Of a stretch of DNA of 64,000 nt, positions 15,776-25,488 are shown piece after piece. The stretch comes from an uncultured Candidatus Rokubacteria bacterium. GTDB lineage: Bacteria > Methylomirabilota > Methylomirabilia > Rokubacteriales > DASRDR01. Under the pieces are notes generated by a model that saw only the letters and a program-made list of their open reading frames with translations, was not told the origin of the DNA and did not search any database. How positions within the stretch are numbered: the stretch's first letter is position 1; the number at the start of each line of letters is the position of its first letter. Where the stretch lies: positions 608,001 to 672,000 of the forward strand of contig CAWDVE010000017.1 of assembly GCA_963805625.1 (NCBI GenBank). The letters run 5' to 3'. The position numbers and the translations under genes were made by a program.

Positions 15776-15848
15776 GCGTTCGAGTGTGACCGCAGCGAGC
15801 GCGAGACGGCGAGACGGTAAGATCGCGCGGGTCTTTCGAGCTCGGATC

Positions 15849-16801
15849 ATGCAGGAAGAGGTGTTTCGGTGTGAGACGATATCGTCCATGATCGGCGGCG
15901 CGCCGTCCGCCACCGGCAACTGCGCGACCTGGGAAAGCGTGCTCGAGGCGCCCGCCGAGGGGCAGCACGTCGCGCAGCTCTACACCGAGCCGGATTTCCT
16001 CGTGCGCGCGGTGTGTCGGTTCGTCGTGGCGGGGCTTCGCCAAGGCGAGGCCGTGCTCCTGCTGATTAGGGCCACCCACCGGCCGGCGATCGTGAGGCAC
16101 CTCGAGGCCGACGGGTTCGTGATCGACGATCTCTCGCATCGCGGTCAGTTGACGATCCTCGACGCCACCCGGACCTTGACCGAGCTGCTTGTCCATGGGC
16201 GGCCGGAGCGCGCGCGCGTCCAGGCGGTGGTCGGCGGGGCGGTCGAGGCCCGCATGGCCGCGGGGTACACGCGGTTTCGCGCGTTCGGGGAGATGGTGGA
16301 CATCCTCCGTCGGGCGAGCCTCACGATGGCGCTCCAGCTCGAGGGGTTGTGGACCGAGCTGGTGACCGCGCGCCGGATCGCGCTCCTCTGTGGCTATTCC
16401 ATCGACACACCTTCAATCCGGAAGCCTACCGGGGGCTTCTCCAGCGTGTCAGCGCCGCGCACCCGCACGTCGTTCCCGTCGAGGACTATGCGCGGCTCGA
16501 CCACGCCGTGGAGTCGGCCTACCTGGAAGTCTTCGGTGTTGGGCGGGACGCAGGGTTTCTCCGCCGAACGTTCATCGCCAACTATCCGAGACCGGTGACG
16601 ATGCCCGACGCCCAGGCGGCGATCCTGGCCGCGCAGGAGTTCGTTCCGGAGGCCGCGGTCGCGCTCCTCGATCGGATCCGCCACCACTACCACGGCCCCC
16701 CGACGGCGGCCTCCGGGAGGCCGTCGGCGGACGGGCCGCCGGGGCTCGTCAGGTCAAGCGACCTAGCGGGCCGAGGTCGAGATTCAGATCGTCGGGGGTG
16801 A
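15849..16801 (+). CDS. MEDS-domain sensor protein (frameshift near 16405)
   Basis: HVAQLY, GLRQGEAV, RAFGEMVDIL, LEGLW, LLCGY; continuation FNPEAY..HPHVVP in another frame. Confidence 0.7.
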
Positions 16802-17141
16802 GCCCGAACCGGCGTGTCAGCGCGCGGATGGCCTGCTCGAGCCTGAGCAACGCCAGCCCCACGGCCTCGGTCTCCTCGGGTGTCAACGTGCCCTCGTCGA
16901 CCCGCCGGAGGGCCTGGCGCTCGAGGAGCTGGCGTAGGAAGTCGACAAGCGTCAAGACCAGCTGCGCCATCGAGCGCTGCACGTCGTCGGGGTTGGCGTT
17001 CCAGCGCGCAGGCGCGGTGGCGCGGCGCCGCTGGCGCAGCTCCGACCGGAGCGCCCGAAGCTCCTTCGCGCGCACGGTCTTCACAGTCATCCGGCGCCGC
17101 TTCACGGCCACGCGTCGCCCCCGAATGCGTACGGTGGCCAC
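16749..17141 (-). CDS. gvpK: Gas vesicle protein K
   Basis: LVLTLVDFLRQLLERQALRRVDEGTLT..DLNLDLGPLG; start uncertain. Confidence 0.92.
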   Translation of the reverse strand: MATVRIRGRRVAVKRRRMTVKTVRAKELRALRSELRQRRRATAPARWNANPDDVQRSMAQLVLTLVDFLRQLLERQALRRVDEGTLTPEETEAVGLALLRLEQAIRALTRRFGLTPDDLNLDLGPLGRLT

Positions 17142-17794
17142 GGGCCGCTGACAGTGAGACGGAGCGGCGCGAGCTGGCTGGCGGCGCGGGTCACGCGCGT
17201 CCGGTATTGCGCTCTCCGGTCGCGCGACACCAGATGGTAGACGCTGGCGAGGAGCGGCGGGGTGGCATGGCGCTGGACCCGCTCGTCGGCGACGAGGTCA
17301 TCGAGTAGCGCGCGAATCGGATCTAGCTCGGGCACCGTCGCCGCGTGATGAAGGCGCTTGCGCTCGGCGAGGTAACGCGTGCCAGGACCGGGCCGGCCCC
17401 CCGCGGTCTTTCCGACTACGGGGGGGTAAGGCTGGGACGCTTCGCGGGGACCGAAGACGCGGAGGGTCATCTGCTCGTGCCCACGCACTTGGGCCAGCCT
17501 CCCCGCAAGCTCGAGGGCGCGCGGAGCCAGCAGGCGCGCGGCCGCATCCTCGTCGGACGCCACGGAACCGAAGCGCATCGGCAATATGGCGTCGACCGCG
17601 GCGGCGATGCGGCGGACGATGGCGTCGTGGCGCCGCAGAGTCGCGGGCGATGCCGCGGGTGGGGTGTCCATCCGGCCCATGACCACGTGGAAGCCTCGGC
17701 CCGGCAGGACCTCCAAACGCTCTCGGCGGAGCCCGCGGCCCGGGTCGCTCCGCAGCGAGTCGCCGACCAGGGCGTAGAGGTAGAGGACGGTCAC
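17102..17794 (-). CDS. GvpL/GvpF family gas vesicle protein
   Basis: LYLYAL, ILPMRFG, SGPWPPYAF; GTG overlaps upstream stop. Confidence 0.88.
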   Translation of the reverse strand: MTVLYLYALVGDSLRSDPGRGLRRERLEVLPGRGFHVVMGRMDTPPAASPATLRRHDAIVRRIAAAVDAILPMRFGSVASDEDAAARLLAPRALELAGRLAQVRGHEQMTLRVFGPREASQPYPPVVGKTAGGRPGPGTRYLAERKRLHHAATVPELDPIRALLDDLVADERVQRHATPPLLASVYHLVSRDRRAQYRTRVTRAASQLAPLRLTVSGPWPPYAFGGDAWP

Positions 17795-18036
17795 TTCCGG
17801 CCCTGCCGCGGCGTGACCCGATCGGCGGCGCACAGGAGCACCGATAGTCGCAGATAGACGAGGTTGACGTCGGCCAGGGCGAGCACGACGTCTCCCGACA
17901 CCACCACACCCTTGGTGAGGACGTGGTCCACGATGTCGAGGAGCGACGCGTCGGAATCCGGCGCCCGCGCGCGGGACCGCCGTGTCCGCCGCCGCCCGGT
18001 CAGAGACGCCCGGCGACGAAGCTGTACGGAGGCCAT
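17791..18036 (-). CDS. gvpS: GvpA/J/S family gas vesicle protein (GvpS-like)
   Basis: SLLDIVDHVLTKGVVVSGDVVLALADVNLVYLRLSVLL. Confidence 0.85.
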   Translation of the reverse strand: MASVQLRRRASLTGRRRTRRSRARAPDSDASLLDIVDHVLTKGVVVSGDVVLALADVNLVYLRLSVLLCAADRVTPRQGRK

Positions 18037-18833
18037 GGGCCCGTTAGCCGGACGTGGAGCCCCTTGTCCGCCGCCTGTGCCGCCTGCGCCCGGACCGCCT
18101 GTCGGAACAGCGCGGCTCGCCCGGTTGGCACCAGGTAAGCTGCGTCGAGGAGCAAGGCCGGCCTGTCGTCCACCGCTATCGGGGGGCGCTGGCGGGCGGC
18201 GTCGGCGTGTCGGGCGAGCGCCCGGTGAAGCGAGGTCGCCGCCGCTCGCGCCCCGCCGGTGAGGCCGCGCGCCGTTTCGCGCTGGCGGCGACGAAGTTCA
18301 AGGAACCGAGTTCCGGGGCTCAGCCCGGCCGTCTCTCGCCGCGCCACCGCGCGCGCGCGTCGCGCCGAAGCCCCGCCTCCTGTCTCGAGCCGCGCCTGGA
18401 CCCCCCACTCCGTCCGGCCGGCCACGCTGGTCAAGCGCCGCGCGATGGCGACGCGGCGCCGGCGCACCTGGGCGAGCGCACGCCCGTCGCTCGAGAAGAG
18501 GGTCAGGAGCCGGAGAGGGAGGACAGCATGCCGCCGCGCACAGTGGGTGACGACTGCCGAATGGGCGACCGCGCATCTCGACACCGCGTCGAGGTCGCGG
18601 ACGACCCGCGCCAGCGCGGCCTCCCCGTATCGGGAAACCGGCGCGTCGGCGACGATCAGCCAGAGCGCCTGCCCGGCGGCCAGCGCCCGGAGCTTCCCCG
18701 TGCCCGGGAGCCCCCCAGCGCCTCGGAGATCCGGTGGCCGGGCGCTCCGCACGACGCAGTAGACGTACGTGGCCGCCTGTGCCGCCGCGGCGGGGCGGCC
18801 CGGCTTCGTCGAGGCCTTTCGCGCGCCTGTCAC
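18000..18833 (-). CDS. GvpL/GvpF family gas vesicle protein
   Basis: TYVYCVV, VLPLRL, EWGV, LDAAYLV, TGPWPPYSF; GTG overlaps ATPase stop. Confidence 0.88.
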   Translation of the reverse strand: MTGARKASTKPGRPAAAAQAATYVYCVVRSARPPDLRGAGGLPGTGKLRALAAGQALWLIVADAPVSRYGEAALARVVRDLDAVSRCAVAHSAVVTHCARRHAVLPLRLLTLFSSDGRALAQVRRRRVAIARRLTSVAGRTEWGVQARLETGGGASARRARAVARRETAGLSPGTRFLELRRRQRETARGLTGGARAAATSLHRALARHADAARQRPPIAVDDRPALLLDAAYLVPTGRAALFRQAVRAQAAQAADKGLHVRLTGPWPPYSFVAGRL

Positions 18834-20839
18834 GACGCCGCCCGGGTCCAGGTCCGCGCCCAGCCGCGGAGGGCCTTCACACCCCTGGGTGGGGGGGCCA
18901 CGGCCGGCGCCAGCAGCACGGGCAAAGCCAGCCCGGGTCGAGCAACCGCGCGCAGCCCGCGCACCTCCGCAGACTCCGTGCGCGTGGCTGCCGCCCTGGT
19001 GACGCCGGCCGGGGTGAGCGCGTTCACGATCAGGGCGGACACAGTGAGACCCAGCGCGTCGAGCCGACGCAGGAGACGGATCGTCTCGAGGCGGGGCAAG
19101 GCGGCCGCTCGGGTGACCACGACCACGCGCGCCTGACGAGGGTCGGCGAGGAGGACCTGGAGCTGCCGGAGGCCGCGCGAGAGCTCGACCAGGTCCGAGG
19201 CCAGGGCGCCAAGACCGAGGATCTGCCGGTACTTGAGAAGCGTGGTCAGGAGCGCGCGCACCCACTCGAGGGCCAGCCCGGGCAGTGCCAGGAGCCGGAG
19301 CGTGTGGCCTGTGGGCGCGGTGTCGACGACGACGAGGTCGTGGCGCGGCAGGGCGGCGCCTGGCGGGAACAGGGTCTCCGTCACGGTCAGCAGCGCGCAC
19401 AGCTCGTCCAGGCCGCCCGGAGCGAGGTCGAGCAGGTCGCGGGCGACGGCCCGGTCGAAGGCGACGTCGAACCGCGAGCCCCCCCGGATCGTGTCGAACA
19501 GCTCGTCCACCGCCGCCCGGTAGCGCTCGCGCCGCGCGGCGAACGCGCGGCTGGCGTCAAGCTCGCGAACGCCGAGGGCGGCCGGGCCGGCGGGCACGCG
19601 GCGCTCCTCGTCGCCGACTTGTGTCGAGAGGACGTCGCCGAGGGAGTGGGCGGGATCCGTGGACAGGAGCAGGATGCGGCGGGTCGGTGCCGCGTCGCCG
19701 AGCGTCAGCGCCATCGCGGCGGCGCACGTCGTCTTGCCGACCCCGCCCTTGCCGGTGATCAGAAGGAGTCGGATGCCGGCCGGCGCGACCAGCCGCGGCC
19801 AGGTGACGGTGATCTCGCGGGACCGGGCCGCCCCGTGGCCTCGAGCCGCGCGCCGCGCCGGCACTCTGGTCAGGAGCTCGCGACCGCGGGAGCGTCTCGC
19901 AAGACTCCTGACCAAAGATCGGAGCGCCACCGGCCCGCGGGGCTCCTCGATCTGCTCGGGGACGAGGCGCACCGGGTGATCGGGGAACGCCGCGTGAACC
20001 GCTGCGATGGCCTCGCGCTCGGCGACGACTCGCCGACGCTCGAACGCGCTGGGGCCCTCCCGAGTCGCAGTCACTCGGTTGACGAGGATCTCGTCAATCG
20101 GGATGCCGCTGGCCTCCAGGTCACGGACGGCGTCCCGCGCCTCCTCGACGGCCAGTGTCTCGGGCAGGACGATCCACCGGAACCGGCAGCGGTCGCGATC
20201 GCGGAGGAGACTGGCTAGCCGGCCGGCCTCGGCGTCGATCTCGGCCACGAGGCGATCCGCCGCGTCGTTCCGGTCTCGGCCCGAGAGCCGCGTGAGCAGG
20301 AAGTGGTGCTTGGCCAGCATCTCGCCGAGCACGGCCGCGATCCTTTGCAGCGCCTCCGGAACGGCCAGGAGCCTGAGCGTGTGCCCGGTGGGCGCGGTGT
20401 CGACGACAACGGTGTCGTACCGGCCGGCCGTCGCCACCCGCGTCAGTTCGAGGAGCCCGCCCAGCTCGTCCACCCCAGGGAAGCTCAGGCCAAGGAAACG
20501 GTCGACGTCCGCGTCGTCGAGATAGGTACCTCGCTCGGCGATGAGGTGCAGCGACTCCCGGCGGGCCCGGAGCCAGCGGGCGAGGGCCCGGTCGGCATCG
20601 AGCTCCAGGGCGTCGAGCGCCGCCCCGCCGACCGGGATGCGCGTCACGCGCGCCCCCACCCGCTGGCCGAGCGCGTCACCCAGCGAGTGCGCCGGGTCGG
20701 TGGATACCACGAGAGTTCGCTGGCGAGCGCCGGCCGCCGTGAGCGCGAGCGCTGCCGCCATGGTGGTCTTGCCCACGCCGCCCTTGCCACCGATGAACTC
20801 GTAGGATGGTGCCCGCCGCCGGGAGGCCGGCCGTCTCAC
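18830..20839 (-). CDS. Tandem two-domain ArsA/GET3-family ATPase
   Basis: Two GKGGVGKTT P-loops, two STDPAHSL, two DTAPTGHT; GTG overlaps gvpG stop. Confidence 0.92.
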   Translation of the reverse strand: MRRPASRRRAPSYEFIGGKGGVGKTTMAAALALTAAGARQRTLVVSTDPAHSLGDALGQRVGARVTRIPVGGAALDALELDADRALARWLRARRESLHLIAERGTYLDDADVDRFLGLSFPGVDELGGLLELTRVATAGRYDTVVVDTAPTGHTLRLLAVPEALQRIAAVLGEMLAKHHFLLTRLSGRDRNDAADRLVAEIDAEAGRLASLLRDRDRCRFRWIVLPETLAVEEARDAVRDLEASGIPIDEILVNRVTATREGPSAFERRRVVAEREAIAAVHAAFPDHPVRLVPEQIEEPRGPVALRSLVRSLARRSRGRELLTRVPARRAARGHGAARSREITVTWPRLVAPAGIRLLLITGKGGVGKTTCAAAMALTLGDAAPTRRILLLSTDPAHSLGDVLSTQVGDEERRVPAGPAALGVRELDASRAFAARRERYRAAVDELFDTIRGGSRFDVAFDRAVARDLLDLAPGGLDELCALLTVTETLFPPGAALPRHDLVVVDTAPTGHTLRLLALPGLALEWVRALLTTLLKYRQILGLGALASDLVELSRGLRQLQVLLADPRQARVVVVTRAAALPRLETIRLLRRLDALGLTVSALIVNALTPAGVTRAAATRTESAEVRGLRAVARPGLALPVLLAPAVAPPPRGVKALRGWARTWTRAAS

Positions 20840-21162
20840 CGGCGGGAGACGTCCCGGTCGCGATCCTCGTCGAAGGTGTCGTCGCCCACGACGCTCGCCT
20901 CCACCCCCGTGACCCGGAAGGTACCGGGCGGCTCCGCGCGGCCCTGCTGGCGCTCTCGGATTTCCCGGATCCGGGCAAGCAGCTCGCGCTCGATCTTGAC
21001 GAACTGGCGCTCGGAGATCTCGCCGAGCTCGAGGCGCATCTGCGCTGCCAGGAGCTCCTCGCGCCACGCGGTGTCGTCGGCCATCTCGGCCTCCACTGCG
21101 GCGGCGATCTTCCCCAGGACGAACTTGAGACTCCCGACGAGGAGCGTGTCGAGAATGATCAC
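20836..21162 (-). CDS. gvpG: Gas vesicle protein G
   Basis: Helical, LELGEISERQFVKIERELLARI; position after gvpF. Confidence 0.8.
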   Translation of the reverse strand: MIILDTLLVGSLKFVLGKIAAAVEAEMADDTAWREELLAAQMRLELGEISERQFVKIERELLARIREIRERQQGRAEPPGTFRVTGVEASVVGDDTFDEDRDRDVSRR

Positions 21163-22151
21163 TCGGACTCTCTCGCGCGCTCCAGCTTCAGACGGATGTT
21201 GACGAAGTTATACGGGGGCCAGGGTCCGGTGTAGCGGAAGTTGAGCTTGTCGTAGAGGGCTCCGACCTCCTTGACCTTCGCGTCGAAGGCCGTTTCCTTG
21301 TCGCGGGACACGAGGAAGGCCGCGTTCATGATCATCTTCTCGCCGATGGGCTTGTTGGCGCGGGCGGCCACCGAGACGTCCCGCAGCTGGTTGAAGATAT
21401 CGGCCACGTACTGCTCGCTTCGCGTCTGGAGGGCCGCCTCGATCTGCCGGCCGTACTGCATGCGTGCGAAGTAGGTCGACCCCGGGACAGCGGCGATCTC
21501 GTTCTTGAGCCGGCGGATGTCCTCGTCGTCGTTCTCGATCTCGCGGATCATGACGTCGCGATCCCACAGCACCTTGAGGCCGAACTCCACCTTCTCCTGC
21601 ATCTTGTCCAGTACGTCCCGGAAGGCCTCGTACGCGCCCCGCAGAAGCTCCACGATGTCGTCGCGTGTCTTGAAGACGGTCCCGAAGGACATCGGGATCA
21701 CCGTGAAGGTCTTCATCACCGTCTCGTTGACCCGCTCGTGGGCGAGGACGTTCTCTCGCGTCGCGTCCAGCACCTCTTCCGGGGTGTCGGAGATGACGGC
21801 GGCGATCTCGCGGAAGCTGACCGTCTGGACCTCGGTCGGCTCGCTGCCGAGGCCGATCGCCCCGAAGCGACGCGGCTCGGCACTCCGGATGATGCAGTAG
21901 ACGTACTTGGCTCGGGCCCCCCCGGGCCGCGCCGCCGGGAGGGAGTCGGCCGGGCCGGACGACTGCCGGGCAGGCGGCAGTGCGCCGCGAGTGCCGAGGC
22001 CCGGTGACGCGGCGATTGGCGGCGATCCACGTTTCCGGGGGAGGGGGAATTTGCCCGGCGCGACGCGCTTCACCGCTCCAGAGCGCCCCGAGGGTGTTGG
22101 GCCCGATGTCGCGGCGCGACGGGCCCTCGGCTTCGAGGGCTTCTTCTTCAC
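21159..22151 (-). CDS. gvpF: GvpF/GvpL family gas vesicle protein with basic N-terminal extension
   Basis: KYVYCII, VLAHERV, VIPMSFG, MNAAFLV, TGPWPPYNF; RBS GGAGG. Confidence 0.9.
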   Translation of the reverse strand: MKKKPSKPRARRAATSGPTPSGRSGAVKRVAPGKFPLPRKRGSPPIAASPGLGTRGALPPARQSSGPADSLPAARPGGARAKYVYCIIRSAEPRRFGAIGLGSEPTEVQTVSFREIAAVISDTPEEVLDATRENVLAHERVNETVMKTFTVIPMSFGTVFKTRDDIVELLRGAYEAFRDVLDKMQEKVEFGLKVLWDRDVMIREIENDDEDIRRLKNEIAAVPGSTYFARMQYGRQIEAALQTRSEQYVADIFNQLRDVSVAARANKPIGEKMIMNAAFLVSRDKETAFDAKVKEVGALYDKLNFRYTGPWPPYNFVNIRLKLERARESE

Positions 22152-22155
22152 CGAA

Positions 22156-22608
22156 TCACCTCCCGCTCTTCGGCCGAGCCTTCGGCGCATCGAGGATACG
22201 TCGAATGGCATCCATGAGTTGGTCGGGCAGGCAGGGCTTCGTGATGACGAGATCGCAGCCGGCCTCGCGGGCGGCCTGCGCGTGCTCGGGCAGGGCATGT
22301 CCGGTCAGGACGACGATCGGAATCTTCTTGGTTCGGGGGTCGCGTCTCAGGCGCCGCGTGGCCTCCCAGCCGTCCATCACCGGCAGCGACAGGTCCATGA
22401 CGATGACGTCGGGCAGGAGGGTCGTCGCTTTCTCCAGGGCTTCGGCCCCGTTCTCGGCCTCCGCGATCCGGTAGCCCGAGAACTTCAGGAACAGCACGTA
22501 GATGGTGCGGTTGTCCTGGACGTCGTCCACGATCAGGACGAGCGGTCCAGCGTCGCTGCCGACCGGCTCACCCGCGTGCCCGGCGATCTGCGCCCTCTTG
22601 CTCGTCAT
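22156..22608 (-). CDS. Single-domain response regulator (DivK/CheY-like)
   Basis: LIVDD, MDLSLPVMDGW, LTGHA, TKP. Confidence 0.9.
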   Translation of the reverse strand: MTSKRAQIAGHAGEPVGSDAGPLVLIVDDVQDNRTIYVLFLKFSGYRIAEAENGAEALEKATTLLPDVIVMDLSLPVMDGWEATRRLRRDPRTKKIPIVVLTGHALPEHAQAAREAGCDLVITKPCLPDQLMDAIRRILDAPKARPKSGR

Positions 22609-24749
22609 TGGCGTCGCGGCCCCTGCGGAATGATCAGGGTGAACGTCGAGCCTTGGCGAAGCTTGCTCTCGAGCGTGATCCGCCCTCCGATGACGGTCGC
22701 GAGCCGGCGGCAGATCGCGAGCCCAAGGCCGGTACCTCCGCCTTCCCGCGTTGGAACGGGTTCGGCCTGGGAGAAGGCCTCGAAGATCCGCGTCTGATTC
22801 GCCTCCGCGATGCCGATGCCGGTGTCGGTGACGGCGATCGCGATCTCCCGGCTCGAGCGTCGCCGCGTGCAGGACACCGTCACCGAGCCTCGAGGGGTGA
22901 ACTTGAGCGCGTTCGTGAGGAGATTCAACAGGATCTGCTTCACCTTCTGCCGGTCGCTCCGGATGACGGGCAGCCCGGCCGGGACGCTAGCGGTCACCGC
23001 GAGATTCGATATCGCGATGAGCGGCTCGACTTCGCTCATGATCTCACGGATCAGCTCGCTCAGTTTGATGGAAGAAAGGTGGACTGGCATCTTGCCCGCT
23101 TCGATGCGCGAAATGTCCAGGATCTCGTTGATGAGCGTCAGGAGGTGCCGGGCGTTCGCGTCGACGCGGGCCAGGGACTCCCGCTGCGTCGGATCGATCG
23201 GGCCGGAGACGCCTCGGAGCAGCAGGCTCGTGTAGCCGAGAATGGCATTGAGCGGTGTGCGGACGTCGTGGGACACGTTGGCGAGGAACTGCGACTTGGC
23301 GACCGATGCCTGCTCCAGCTCGATTGCCTGGCGACGCAGGCGCTCATTTTGGTGAACGAGCGCCGATGTCGCTTCCTGAACGCGCCGCTCGAGCTGAGCG
23401 GAGGCCGCCTTGAGCTGCTCGTAGAGCTGCTCGCGCTCGATGGCCTCCGTCCGGTCGTGGAGGATCGTGACAATGGCCGAGACTTCCGCGGGCTCCCCGT
23501 ACACGTTGCCGGATACCGCTTCAACGGGAATTGGCTGACCGGTCTTGGGATCGACGAGATTGACGCCACCCTGGTACTTGGATCCTCCGGTCTTGCCGAA
23601 GAGGAGGTTTGACACGAAGGAGGTGAAGTTGGCGTCGTTGGCCTGGACGCGCTGTCTCTCGGCCAGGCTCGCCTGCTCGGGGGCGACGAACAGGCGTTCG
23701 GCGGGCGTGTTCATCATGACGAGATTTCCCGAGGGGTCGGTGACCAGGATAGGGTCCGCGACGGAATCGATGACGAGGTCGAGGCGATCCCGCTCAGCCC
23801 GGACTTCCGCCTCCGCGGCGCGAAGCTTCTGGTAGTTGTCCTGGATCTCCTCCGTCGCGCGCCGAAGGTCGGACACATTCCGCAGGATGGACACGATGCC
23901 CATGCCCATGCGCGCATCACCGGCCGTCGTGCTGATGAGCTCGAAGAGGAGGTCGGATCCCTCGGTGGGGTCCACCAGCGCGAGCTCACGAGGCGCCGAC
24001 GTCAGCTGCTCCACGGCGCTCCGTCCGAGCGCCGAGGAGAAGAGCATGTTGTTGATGGCGACCGCCCGGCGGCGACCCTCGCTCTCGTCTTCCCGCGTCG
24101 CGAAGAGGCGCTCGGCCCGACCGTTCGCGATGACCAGTCGGCCCTCGGTATCCGTGAGCATGATCGGATCCGTCACCCGGTCGAGGATGCTCTGGAGGAG
24201 GTCGCGATCCCGGCGAAGGCGCCGCTCCGTCTCGAAGCTAGTGGATCGCAGCCGCGCGCGCACGAGCCGGTAGCCGAGGTACTCGGATACCCACTCGAGC
24301 TCGGTTTGGCTCGCCGTTACCGGCCGCACCAGGAGCAGCCCGCCCGGAGCCTTATCATGAGTCTCGACGCTGTGGAGCGGCAAGGCCAGGAAGGGCGCCT
24401 GCCGCGAGAACAGGGAGCCCGCCATCTCTCCGGCCAGTACGGCGGGTTGCGACGCGAGGAGCGCCTGGATCAGGGGGTGATCTTGCGCCTCGAGGTCGAC
24501 TCCGAAGCCGTTGACGGCACCCCGCATGGCGCCGTAGCCGGTCAGGTGGATGAGGCGTGTCCGCTCGGCGTCGAGGACGAGGCAGTGCCCTTCGCGCACG
24601 CCCGCGTGTTGGCCGAGCCACTCGAGACATCGCCCAGCCATCTCGGCGGGGTCCTCGCACGCGAGCAGGAATTCGAGAAGGGCGAGCCGTTCTTCGGAGC
24701 TCGGCTCGGCCCGTCGCGCCGCTCGCACCGACGCAGCGCCGCGGGTCAC
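22605..24749 (-). CDS. Cytoplasmic PAS-PAS sensor histidine kinase
   Basis: Two PAS repeats (DPIMLTD, DPILVTD), SHDVRTPLN H-box, NALKFT, DTGIGI, GTGLGL. Confidence 0.92.
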   Translation of the reverse strand: MTRGAASVRAARRAEPSSEERLALLEFLLACEDPAEMAGRCLEWLGQHAGVREGHCLVLDAERTRLIHLTGYGAMRGAVNGFGVDLEAQDHPLIQALLASQPAVLAGEMAGSLFSRQAPFLALPLHSVETHDKAPGGLLLVRPVTASQTELEWVSEYLGYRLVRARLRSTSFETERRLRRDRDLLQSILDRVTDPIMLTDTEGRLVIANGRAERLFATREDESEGRRRAVAINNMLFSSALGRSAVEQLTSAPRELALVDPTEGSDLLFELISTTAGDARMGMGIVSILRNVSDLRRATEEIQDNYQKLRAAEAEVRAERDRLDLVIDSVADPILVTDPSGNLVMMNTPAERLFVAPEQASLAERQRVQANDANFTSFVSNLLFGKTGGSKYQGGVNLVDPKTGQPIPVEAVSGNVYGEPAEVSAIVTILHDRTEAIEREQLYEQLKAASAQLERRVQEATSALVHQNERLRRQAIELEQASVAKSQFLANVSHDVRTPLNAILGYTSLLLRGVSGPIDPTQRESLARVDANARHLLTLINEILDISRIEAGKMPVHLSSIKLSELIREIMSEVEPLIAISNLAVTASVPAGLPVIRSDRQKVKQILLNLLTNALKFTPRGSVTVSCTRRRSSREIAIAVTDTGIGIAEANQTRIFEAFSQAEPVPTREGGGTGLGLAICRRLATVIGGRITLESKLRQGSTFTLIIPQGPRRQ

Positions 24750-24752
24750 GAC

Positions 24753-25103
24753 TTAGGCCGGCTGAGGTGTCCGCCGCCGCGCGCGGACACGCCGCGTGGG
24801 GCGGCGCCGTGTGGCGGCGGAGGGGGTGGCGGCGAGCTGCGCCCGGAGCGCGGCGTTCTCGGCGAGGACGGCCTCCTGGGACGCGACTGCGGCCGGCCGT
24901 GACACCGGCGCTACCTGCGCAATCGACTCCGAGTACTTGAGGTAGGTATCGATCGAGGCGACAACGACCCGCGCCTCGACGGTGATCAGGTCGATTCCGA
25001 CGAGGGACACGCGCACCCAGGCGTCGATAACGATGCCCTTGTCCAGAACCCGGTCGAGGACGTCGATGAGGCTGGTTCCGCCCGTAGTGCGCTCAATTGG
25101 CAT
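24753..25103 (-). CDS. gvpA: Gas vesicle structural protein A with C-terminal extension
   Basis: [47 protein letters not shown]. Confidence 0.95.
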
Positions 25104-25107
25104 CGGT

Positions 25108-25488
25108 TCATCCTCCCGTGGGGGCCGTGGGGGCCGTGGGGGCCGTTCGCCTACGCGGAGCTCGGCGCTTGGCGGGCGCCCGCCGCGCGGTGAGCGCAGC
25201 GATCCGGCGTTCGAGGTGCCTCACCTGGCGACGCAGGGTCTCCGTCTCCACTGACGGGGTGCGGCCCCCCGGAGCCAGGTTCCTGTCGTATTTCCACCAG
25301 TCCAGCCCGATCTCCTGAGCCTTGTCGATCGAGCACACGATCAGCCGGATGCGAATGGTGAGGAGCTCGACCTCGGCCAGCGAGATCCGGATGTCCCCCG
25401 CGATCAGAAGGCCCTTGTCGAGGACCCTGTCGAGAAGGTCGACGAGGCCGGTGCCCCGCTGCCCTCCCATCGCCAGATCGTTCCGCAC
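25108..25488 (-). CDS. gvpJ: Gas vesicle protein J
   Basis: [51 protein letters not shown]. Confidence 0.9.

What the first reader, a model, noticed from the sequence alone, without database searches (positions are those of the whole stretch)
16749..25488. Gas vesicle operon with a translationally coupled tandem ArsA/GET3 ATPase and no GvpN/GvpC
Seen: gvpJ-gvpA-HK-RR-gvpF-gvpG-[ArsA-type, two NBDs]-gvpF/L-gvpS-gvpF/L-gvpK, with GTGA start/stop overlaps on both sides of the ATPase. No arsB/C/D/R is present, and the segment where GET3 carries CxxC appears to read ATREGPSAFERRR. Established: canonical clusters use the AAA+ ATPase GvpN, and GET3-type ATPases chaperone hydrophobic helices. Inference: this ATPase is a dedicated assembly chaperone for hydrophobic GvpA/J/S that replaces GvpN, defining a distinct gas-vesicle-like system.
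Basis: partly seen in the sequence, partly recalled or inferred. Interest (0 to 1): 0.8.

Follow-up and report, generated by a model that had tools for sequence, protein, structure and literature searches.

The report
Gas-vesicle operon with optional Get3-like ATPase
This soil-bacterial gas-vesicle gene cluster carries a two-part ATPase built like the Get3 chaperone, which likely helps handle greasy vesicle proteins; the pairing was published in 2010, and the ATPase does not track the absence of the usual GvpN motor, so it is likely an optional helper and not a replacement.

Summary
Observation confirmed: an 11-gene operon (gvpJ-gvpA-HK-RR-gvpF-gvpG-ATPase-gvpL-gvpS-gvpL-gvpK) in a Rokubacteriales-type genome with no GvpN, GvpC, GvpO or ArsD found. 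The 669-aa tandem ATPase is Get3-like, not ArsA: TRC40-insert-length region in both halves, no ArsA metal cysteines, separate clade. The interpretation mostly fails. (1) Castillo & Saier 2010 already reported two-domain ArsA homologues in gvp clusters, including an acidobacterial one listed without gvpN; Farkas 2019 defined the protein class. (2) No anti-correlation: the ATPase occurs in 6 of 8 GvpN-positive and 49 of 58 GvpN-negative gvpK genomes of the phylum, and shares a contig with gvpN in 8 loci plus 12 cyanobacterial-type loci. (3) A 99%-complete same-genus genome keeps the operon without either ATPase. (4) The missing CxxC is a local loss: 64 of 80 homologues have it in both halves. 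(5) 4-bp overlaps occur at 7 of 10 junctions. Best reading: an optional Get3-type helper acting early on hydrophobic Gvp helices; no client is shown. The scan noted this arrangement before (28 findings, at least 24 genomes).

The parts
25108..25488 (-). gvpJ-like GvpA-family protein with Arg/Ala/Pro-rich tail (start GTG 25488 or ATG 25470)
   Evidence: PF00741 58.8 bits
24753..25103 (-). gvpA, major shell protein, with an approximately 45-residue C-terminal extension
   Evidence: NF006874 over cut-off; matches solved shell proteins 8gbs and 7r1c over residues 1-68 and 1-62; dN/dS 0.07-0.19 against 7 relatives
22605..24749 (-). soluble sensor histidine kinase: likely GAF, two PAS, HisKA, HATPase
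   Evidence: Pfam; N-terminal part resembles GAF clusters at 0.96 in the Atlas, a lead only
22156..22608 (-). single-domain response regulator
   Evidence: PF00072 97 bits
21159..22151 (-). gvpF (GvpF/L family) with low-complexity N-terminus
   Evidence: PF06386 255.9 bits; GTG start after a GGAGG, 4 bases behind the RR stop
20836..21162 (-). gvpG, with a hydrophobic N-terminal segment (candidate client, untested)
   Evidence: PF05120 49.2 bits; 19-residue hydropathy 1.81; conserved in 33 aligned sequences
18830..20839 (-). 669-aa tandem Get3/TRC40-like ATPase; both halves keep Walker A (18-25, 363-370), switch I Asp (48, 395) and DTAP (147, 506); CxxC lost in both halves
18000..18833 (-). gvpL (second GvpF/L)
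   Evidence: PF06386 151.9 bits
17791..18036 (-). gvpS/M-like GvpA-family protein (start ATG 18036 or CTG 18003)
   Evidence: PF00741 46.5 bits
17102..17794 (-). third GvpF/L
   Evidence: PF06386 115.4 bits; GTGA overlap with the gvpS stop
16749..17105 (-). gvpK
   Evidence: PF05121 104.8 bits; GTGA overlap

Best explanation
This is an intact gas-vesicle-protein operon without GvpN, GvpC or GvpO, and its tandem ATPase is a Get3-like protein that likely serves as an optional, ATP-cycled holder for a hydrophobic Gvp helix at an early stage of assembly, a job separate from GvpN's. Shown: gene content and order, Get3-type anatomy, intact ATPase motifs, purifying selection, occurrence with and without GvpN, and loss from some intact operons. 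Inferred: the two halves close into one Get3-like groove; it would take up a hydrophobic segment (GvpG's N-terminal helix, or helix 1 of GvpA/J/S) next to the GvpF-GvpG hand-over and release it on ATP hydrolysis. Inferred from knockouts in other species: without GvpN the operon would make only small bicone vesicles. The embedded kinase and regulator likely control when this happens.
For: Region after DTAP is 55 residues in 20 of 20 first halves and 48 in 20 of 20 second halves, 55 in 5 of 5 single-domain gvp-linked proteins, against 28-43 in 12 ArsA domains; window halves hold 17 and 22 large hydrophobic residues against 7-11. The model (pLDDT 83.7, pTM 0.86) has long helices 160-186/193-213 and 510-536/544-565; archaeal TRC40 3zq6 fits one half at rmsd 2.9 A, target TM 0.83. 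CxxC in both halves in 64 of 80 homologues, lost in both in the 14 closest, mixed in 2, as expected for one shared Get3-type zinc site. All 45 gvp-linked domains in a 72-row quick tree form one branch (SH-aLRT 97) holding GvpN-positive and GvpN-negative clusters. In the phylum 55 of 61 other genomes with the ATPase have gvpK; the other 6 are under 90% complete. dN/dS 0.18-0.25 against 4 CxxC-less relatives. GvpN acts in elongation and GvpF/GvpG are proposed chaperones of GvpA (PMC11445434 passages; PMC9501494 passages). Other gvp clusters carry GvpH/Hsp20, CDC48, GvpN and a single-domain member together, so clusters collect chaperones.
Against: No client is shown. Working clusters of B. megaterium, Serratia, Halobacterium and the A. 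flos-aquae set expressed in mammalian cells list no such gene (Table 1), so any role is dispensable there. 20 of 27 cyanobacterial-type loci of 15 kb or more have no gvp gene nearby, so that branch has a role beyond vesicles. The groove region has 0-1 Met in the window protein. The most hydrophobic stretches of GvpA/J/S are beta-hairpin in solved shells (recalled), not the helices Get3 binds. Whole-chain Foldseek ranks ArsA structures first, which I ascribe to their being two-domain chains. No vesicles have been shown for this operon type; none of my paper searches found one.
Confidence: 0.5

Rival explanations
1. The ATPase is a general Get3-type holdase or tail-anchored-protein chaperone (or a regulator) that is co-expressed with the gvp operon under the same stress signal but does not act on Gvp proteins specifically.
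For: 20 of 27 long cyanobacterial-type loci lack gvp neighbours; Mxa1 of cluster 6 is not gvp-linked; species with double-domain Get3 homologues tend to have more predicted tail-anchored proteins (PMC6593721 passage); operons survive its loss.
Against: In this phylum it is the only tandem PF02374 gene of the genome and comes and goes with gvpK; it sits directly behind gvpG in three different cluster layouts.
Confidence: 0.27
2. One reading: the ATPase replaces GvpN as the assembly motor, at least in GvpN-less lineages.
For: It is the only ATPase of this operon; 49 of 58 GvpN-negative gvpK genomes of the phylum have it; GvpN-negative tandem proteins may be one branch (support only 36), so a takeover after GvpN loss is not excluded.
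Against: 6 of 8 GvpN-positive genomes also have it; both genes on one contig in L050-L054, L090, L101, L103 and in 12 cyanobacterial-type loci; operons lacking both exist (L107, L104, L102/L126); Castillo & Saier saw both together and proposed distinct steps; a SIMIBI pseudo-dimer has no pore to thread substrate as an AAA+ ring does (established knowledge).
Confidence: 0.08
3. The operon is cryptic in the Streptomyces sense: it makes no gas-filled vesicle, and the Gvp proteins and ATPase serve another stress function. This can hold together with the readings above.
For: No GvpN, GvpO or GvpC; GvpA has a long tail; S. coelicolor's GvpN-less cluster gave no vesicles under tested conditions (PMC4982088 passage).
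Against: GvpA core matches both solved shell proteins (E 1.7e-23 and 2.5e-20); A, J, S, F, L, G, K are all present and under purifying selection; gvpN deletions still give small vesicles.
Confidence: 0.3
4. It is an arsenite-pump ArsA that sits in the operon by chance.
For: Database names say 'arsenite-transporting ATPase'; acr3 exists on another contig; two-domain layout like ArsA.
Against: E. coli C113 and C422 align to Gly in 45 of 45 gvp-linked domains and C172 to no Cys; below the TIGR04291 cut-off; ArsA is a separate branch (99); a shared duplication with ArsA is rejected (AU p 5.6e-6, 39 rows); no ArsD.
Confidence: 0.02

Closest known systems
gvp-associated two-domain ArsA homologues, clusters 4 and 6 of Castillo & Saier 2010 (PMC2963123), e.g. 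Aba1 of Acidobacteria bacterium Ellin345
   Same: Two domains, about 630-680 aa, ArsA cysteines absent, inside gvp clusters without ars genes; the acidobacterial cluster is listed with L/F twice, J, K, M and no N.
   Different: Here the host is a Rokubacteriales-type genome, with an embedded kinase/regulator pair and three F/L genes. Their sequences were not in my tree.
Bacterial double-domain Get3 homologues, groups 7 and 8 of Farkas et al. 2019 (PMC6593721)
   Same: Two tandem domains, each with a TRC40 insert; group 8 has CxxC, as 64 of 80 homologues here do.
   Different: The window's protein and its 13 closest sampled relatives have lost both CxxC motifs; the review does not mention gas vesicles ('vesicle' 0 occurrences).
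Get3/TRC40 and Chlamydomonas ArsA1 (5zme), archaeal TRC40 (3zq6, 3ug6)
   Same: Best sequence matches among solved structures; same motifs and long groove helices.
   Different: Few methionines in the groove region; no receptor genes in the operon; no client known.
Streptomyces coelicolor gvpOAFG-JLSK cluster
   Same: Soil organism, no gvpN or gvpC, A-F-G...L-S-K order.
   Different: It has gvpO and no ATPase is listed; this operon has no gvpO and has a kinase/regulator pair.
Serratia 39006 gvp locus with gvrA/B/C
   Same: Regulatory genes embedded among gvp genes and three F/L paralogues.
   Different: Has GvpN, GvpC, GvpV and no Get3-like gene listed.
E. coli ArsA
   Same: Two SIMIBI ATPase halves in one chain.
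   Different: No metal cysteines, longer groove region, independent duplication, no ars context.

Membership tests
ArsA arsenite-pump ATPase | Metal-binding C113, C172, C422 | tested here: not met
ArsA arsenite-pump ATPase | No TRC40 insert (short region after DTAP) | tested here: not met
   55 and 48 residues against 28-43
ArsA arsenite-pump ATPase | ars operon context (arsB/acr3, arsD, arsR) | tested here: not met
   none in the operon; no ArsD in genome; acr3 on another contig; arsB, arsC and arsR were not searched genome-wide
ArsA arsenite-pump ATPase | Falls in the ArsA clade / over TIGR04291 cut-off | tested here: not met
Double-domain bacterial Get3 homologues (Farkas group 8 / Castillo cluster 6) | Two tandem ATPase domains with intact P-loop, switch I and II | tested here: met
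Double-domain bacterial Get3 homologues (Farkas group 8 / Castillo cluster 6) | TRC40-insert-length hydrophobic region in both domains | tested here: met
   (by length, composition and predicted helices; groove surface not measured)
Double-domain bacterial Get3 homologues (Farkas group 8 / Castillo cluster 6) | CxxC in both domains (group 8) | tested here: not met
   absent in this protein and 13 close relatives; present in 64 of 80 homologues. The protein is a CxxC-less descendant of that type, not a member by this criterion
Double-domain bacterial Get3 homologues (Farkas group 8 / Castillo cluster 6) | Groups with the published members Aba1, Mxa1 in a tree | not tested
   those sequences were not fetched; the Farkas member list was not among the supplement text held
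Get3/TRC40 targeting factor | Binds a hydrophobic helix and releases it with ATP turnover | not testable with these tools
Canonical gas-vesicle cluster | GvpA with shell-forming core | tested here: met
Canonical gas-vesicle cluster | Accessory F, G, K, L and two A-like proteins | tested here: met
Canonical gas-vesicle cluster | GvpN and GvpC (listed as conserved in PMC9501494) | tested here: not met
   the same review's table lists S. coelicolor without them
Canonical gas-vesicle cluster | Forms gas-filled, pressure-collapsible vesicles | not testable with these tools
   uncultured host

The most novel reading that the evidence does not exclude
In GvpN-less soil clusters of Rokubacteriales and Acidobacteriota the tandem Get3-like ATPase grips a Gvp helix in its groove and feeds subunits into the growing shell, so that a membrane-protein targeting machine has been reused to build a lipid-free organelle and lets these vesicles grow without an AAA+ motor.
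Probability: 0.12. Interest if true: 0.7.

Novelty: new member of a known kind. Interest (0 to 1): 0.27.

Why it matters
Bacterial Get3-like ATPases have almost no known clients, and how hydrophobic GvpA-family proteins are kept soluble before assembly is open. A compact operon with natural plus-ATPase and minus-ATPase versions in one genus (window against G243) is a ready test pair, and a helper that raised yield would be useful for gas-vesicle ultrasound reporters. But the linkage has been in print since 2010 and the arrangement is common, so this locus is one more example, not a discovery.

Tried and rejected
RNA runs: none was listed. Promoter/terminator scan: 0 promoter-like sites, 6 terminator-like against 3.0 +/- 1.8 by chance, uninformative. 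A careful tree of whole tandem proteins did not finish; the quick tree leaves monophyly of GvpN-negative proteins unresolved (support 36). An intended actinobacterial survey returned a subset of the same acidobacterial genomes, so Actinomycetota and haloarchaea were not surveyed; I rely on papers there. The gvpG-to-ATPase junction count was an artefact of my search bound; redone (4-bp overlap in 13 of 32 loci, 3 of which are broken at the first Walker A). The 31%-identity 'ATPase' row for L107 is a spurious Arg/Ala-rich frame; the family search finds no PF02374 gene in that genome. PMC412153 was not held. Rejected: translational coupling as evidence of a special link; loss of CxxC as a family signature; cyanobacterial GvpV as the ATPase (it is a separate 104-aa gene). 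Locus-level counts (31 ATPase-only clusters) are biased because most loci were picked through the ATPase; genome-level counts were used for frequencies, and no significance test was made because genomes are kin.
Full report
Observation. The eleven genes are as described, on the minus strand from 25488 to 16749. The ATPase is 18830-20839, 669 aa, with two PF02374 stretches; both halves keep GKGGVGKT, STDPAHSLGD and DTAPTGHTLRLL. The genome is 7.27 Mb, about 70% G+C, 99.9% complete; its closest ATPase relatives (69-87% identity) are in Rokubacteria/Methylomirabilota records. It has one gvp cluster and one tandem ArsA-family gene. GvpN, GvpO, GvpC and ArsD were not found, and each model rang in positive controls. 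An acr3 gene lies on another contig. The GTGA overlaps are real, but 7 of 10 junctions in this operon can be read that way, and across 25 orthologous loci the L-S, S-L, L-K and HK-RR junctions overlap in 22-24 of 25, against 16 of 23 for ATPase-L and 13 of 32 for G-ATPase.

What the ATPase is. It passes TIGR00345 and fails TIGR04291. Best solved relatives by sequence are Chlamydomonas ArsA1 and archaeal TRC40. After the DTAP motif it has 55 and 48 residues, as do all 20 first and 20 second halves sampled, against 28-43 in 12 ArsA domains; E. coli C113 and C422 align to Gly in 45 of 45 gvp-linked domains and none has Cys at the C172 column (Castillo & Saier report other residues at these columns from their alignment, but likewise no Cys). 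The predicted structure (pLDDT 83.7, pTM 0.86, 80 sequences) shows long helices there; Foldseek ranks two-domain ArsA structures first over the whole chain, while the lowest rmsd listed is archaeal TRC40 on one half (2.9 A). In a quick tree of 72 domains, ArsA is one branch (99) and all 45 gvp-linked domains another (97), with first and second halves apart; forcing first halves together with ArsA's first halves is rejected (AU p 5.6e-6 on 39 rows). No eukaryotic Get3 was in the trees, several rows have unusual composition and two are long, so deep order is uncertain.

The CxxC point reverses. The family is thus zinc-clamp Get3-like, and this lineage lost both motifs together. The gene is still under purifying selection (dN/dS 0.18-0.25 against 4 such relatives; rough, G+C-rich).

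Linkage. In the phylum, gvpK is in 68 of 251 genomes and the ATPase in 62 of 251; 55 of the 61 other ATPase genomes have gvpK, and the remaining 6 are under 90% complete. The order J-A-HK-RR-F-G-ATPase-L-S-L-K recurs across Rokubacteriales and in Acidobacteriota. In a sample of 301 Acidobacteriota 14 have gvpK.

Replacement of GvpN fails. Of 66 gvpK genomes tested (all hits but the window's genome and one sub-cut-off hit), 8 have GvpN; 6 of these 8 have the ATPase, against 49 of the 58 without (many of the 9 negatives are fragmented, and some GvpN-negative ones are truncated clusters of a GvpN type). Both genes lie in one cluster in L050, L051, L101, L103 (A-N-F-G-ATPase-S-K-J), L052-L054 (single-domain member with GvpH/Hsp20 and CDC48) and the Nostoc sphaeroides plasmid L090 (with GvpC). 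Four loci have GvpN and no ATPase (L055, L056, L105, L106; three near contig ends). Three operons have neither: L107 from a same-genus genome, 99% complete, where gvpG is followed after about 40 bases by gvpL and the other genes stay constrained, L104 and L102/L126. Of 69 metagenomic loci related to the Nostoc protein, 19 show gvp genes and 12 of these gvpN; among the 27 loci of 15 kb or more, 20 show no gvp gene, 6 a cluster with gvpN and 1 a lone gvpA-like gene. So the ATPase neither tracks GvpN loss nor is confined to gvp clusters.

Prior art. Castillo & Saier 2010 (PMC2963123; abstract, passages, section 3.12 and part of the tables read) describe two-domain, cysteine-less ArsA homologues in gvp clusters of four phyla, most with gvpN, one acidobacterial cluster listed without it, and propose that the two ATPases energize distinct steps. 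Farkas et al. 2019 (PMC6593721; parts 1-3 of 5 and passages; one supplement searched) define double-domain TRC40-insert proteins of cyanobacteria and Myxococcales. GvpN-less clusters and bicones in gvpN mutants are in PMC9501494 and PMC4982088 (passages); GvpF/GvpG as proposed GvpA chaperones and GvpN in elongation in PMC11445434 (passages). Passages only were seen of PMC7204071 and bioRxiv 2021.04.26.441537 (no mention of ArsA). Searches for Get3+ArsA+bacteria+gas vesicle and for gas vesicle+Rokubacteria found 0 papers (related searches), so the explicit 'Get3 groove for Gvp' idea and this host seem not to be in the held library, which lacks most subscription papers. The scan itself holds 28 findings of this kind in at least 24 genomes, seen after I had formed my reading.

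Mechanism. Most likely the two halves form one Get3-like groove that holds a hydrophobic Gvp segment early in assembly, as an optional aid beside GvpF and GvpG (0.5). GvpG's N-terminus is my preferred candidate because gvpG precedes the ATPase in three cluster layouts and begins with a hydrophobic, weakly amphipathic stretch, but ATPase-less operons keep the same stretch, and nothing tests binding. A general holdase role (0.27) is the main rival; true replacement of GvpN (0.08) and arsenite pumping (0.02) are unlikely. Whether the operon makes gas-filled vesicles at all is open (0.3 that it does not); if it does, small bicones are expected.

Verdict. Real, conserved and untested, but a new member of a kind described in 2010. 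Interest 0.27.

Noticed in passing
L052:10709-14470, L053, L054, L055, L105: gvp clusters of other Methylomirabilota and Acidobacteriota carry a GvpH/Hsp20 gene and a full CDC48-type AAA ATPase (718-738 aa) besides GvpN; in L052-L054 a single-domain, CxxC-bearing Get3-like gene lies in the same stretch (in L052 between those two genes), giving three ATPases in one cluster.
   Followed up: partly
window 18830-20839 and A1: Both CxxC motifs were lost together in the 14 closest proteins, and one same-genus genome (G243) has lost the whole gene; the fused protein seems not to need the zinc clamp.
   Followed up: yes
window 15786-16801 (+): A MEDS-domain gene just past gvpK on the opposite strand appears split over two overlapping frames (15786-16598 and 16349-16801), a possible frameshift or assembly error.
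   Followed up: no
L078:8744-10258, L079, L082, L084: One genus has a second, hybrid histidine kinase (DUF4118, HisKA, HATPase, receiver) inserted between gvpF and gvpG.
   Followed up: partly
L108 (G241, same genus, 95% complete): A decayed operon: partial gvpK, one F/L, RR, HK and one A-like gene; G, ATPase, L, S, L are missing.
   Followed up: no
window 24753-25488: GvpA and GvpJ both end in Arg/Ala/Pro-rich tails of 45-60 residues that shell proteins of floating bacteria lack; a similar feature of actinomycete GvpA is recalled, not tested.
   Followed up: no
G136: L057, L058, L059: One genome seems to hold two cluster types, a GvpN-less one and a GvpN-bearing one, each with its own tandem ATPase (pieces on three contigs).
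   Followed up: partly
L096, L102/L126: Acidobacterial clusters with internal inversions (ATPase and A genes against L-S-L-K in L096; gvpK inverted in L126).
   Followed up: no
L026: The record is titled Bifidobacteriaceae, but its ATPase falls among acidobacterial single-domain proteins and its phylum search returned acidobacterial genomes.
   Followed up: partly
L144, L147, L148, L150, L153, L154, L165, L176: In a low-G+C cyanobacterial-type group the ATPase gene is followed directly by gvpV and leads into gvpN-J-K-F, a different position from Nostoc.
   Followed up: no
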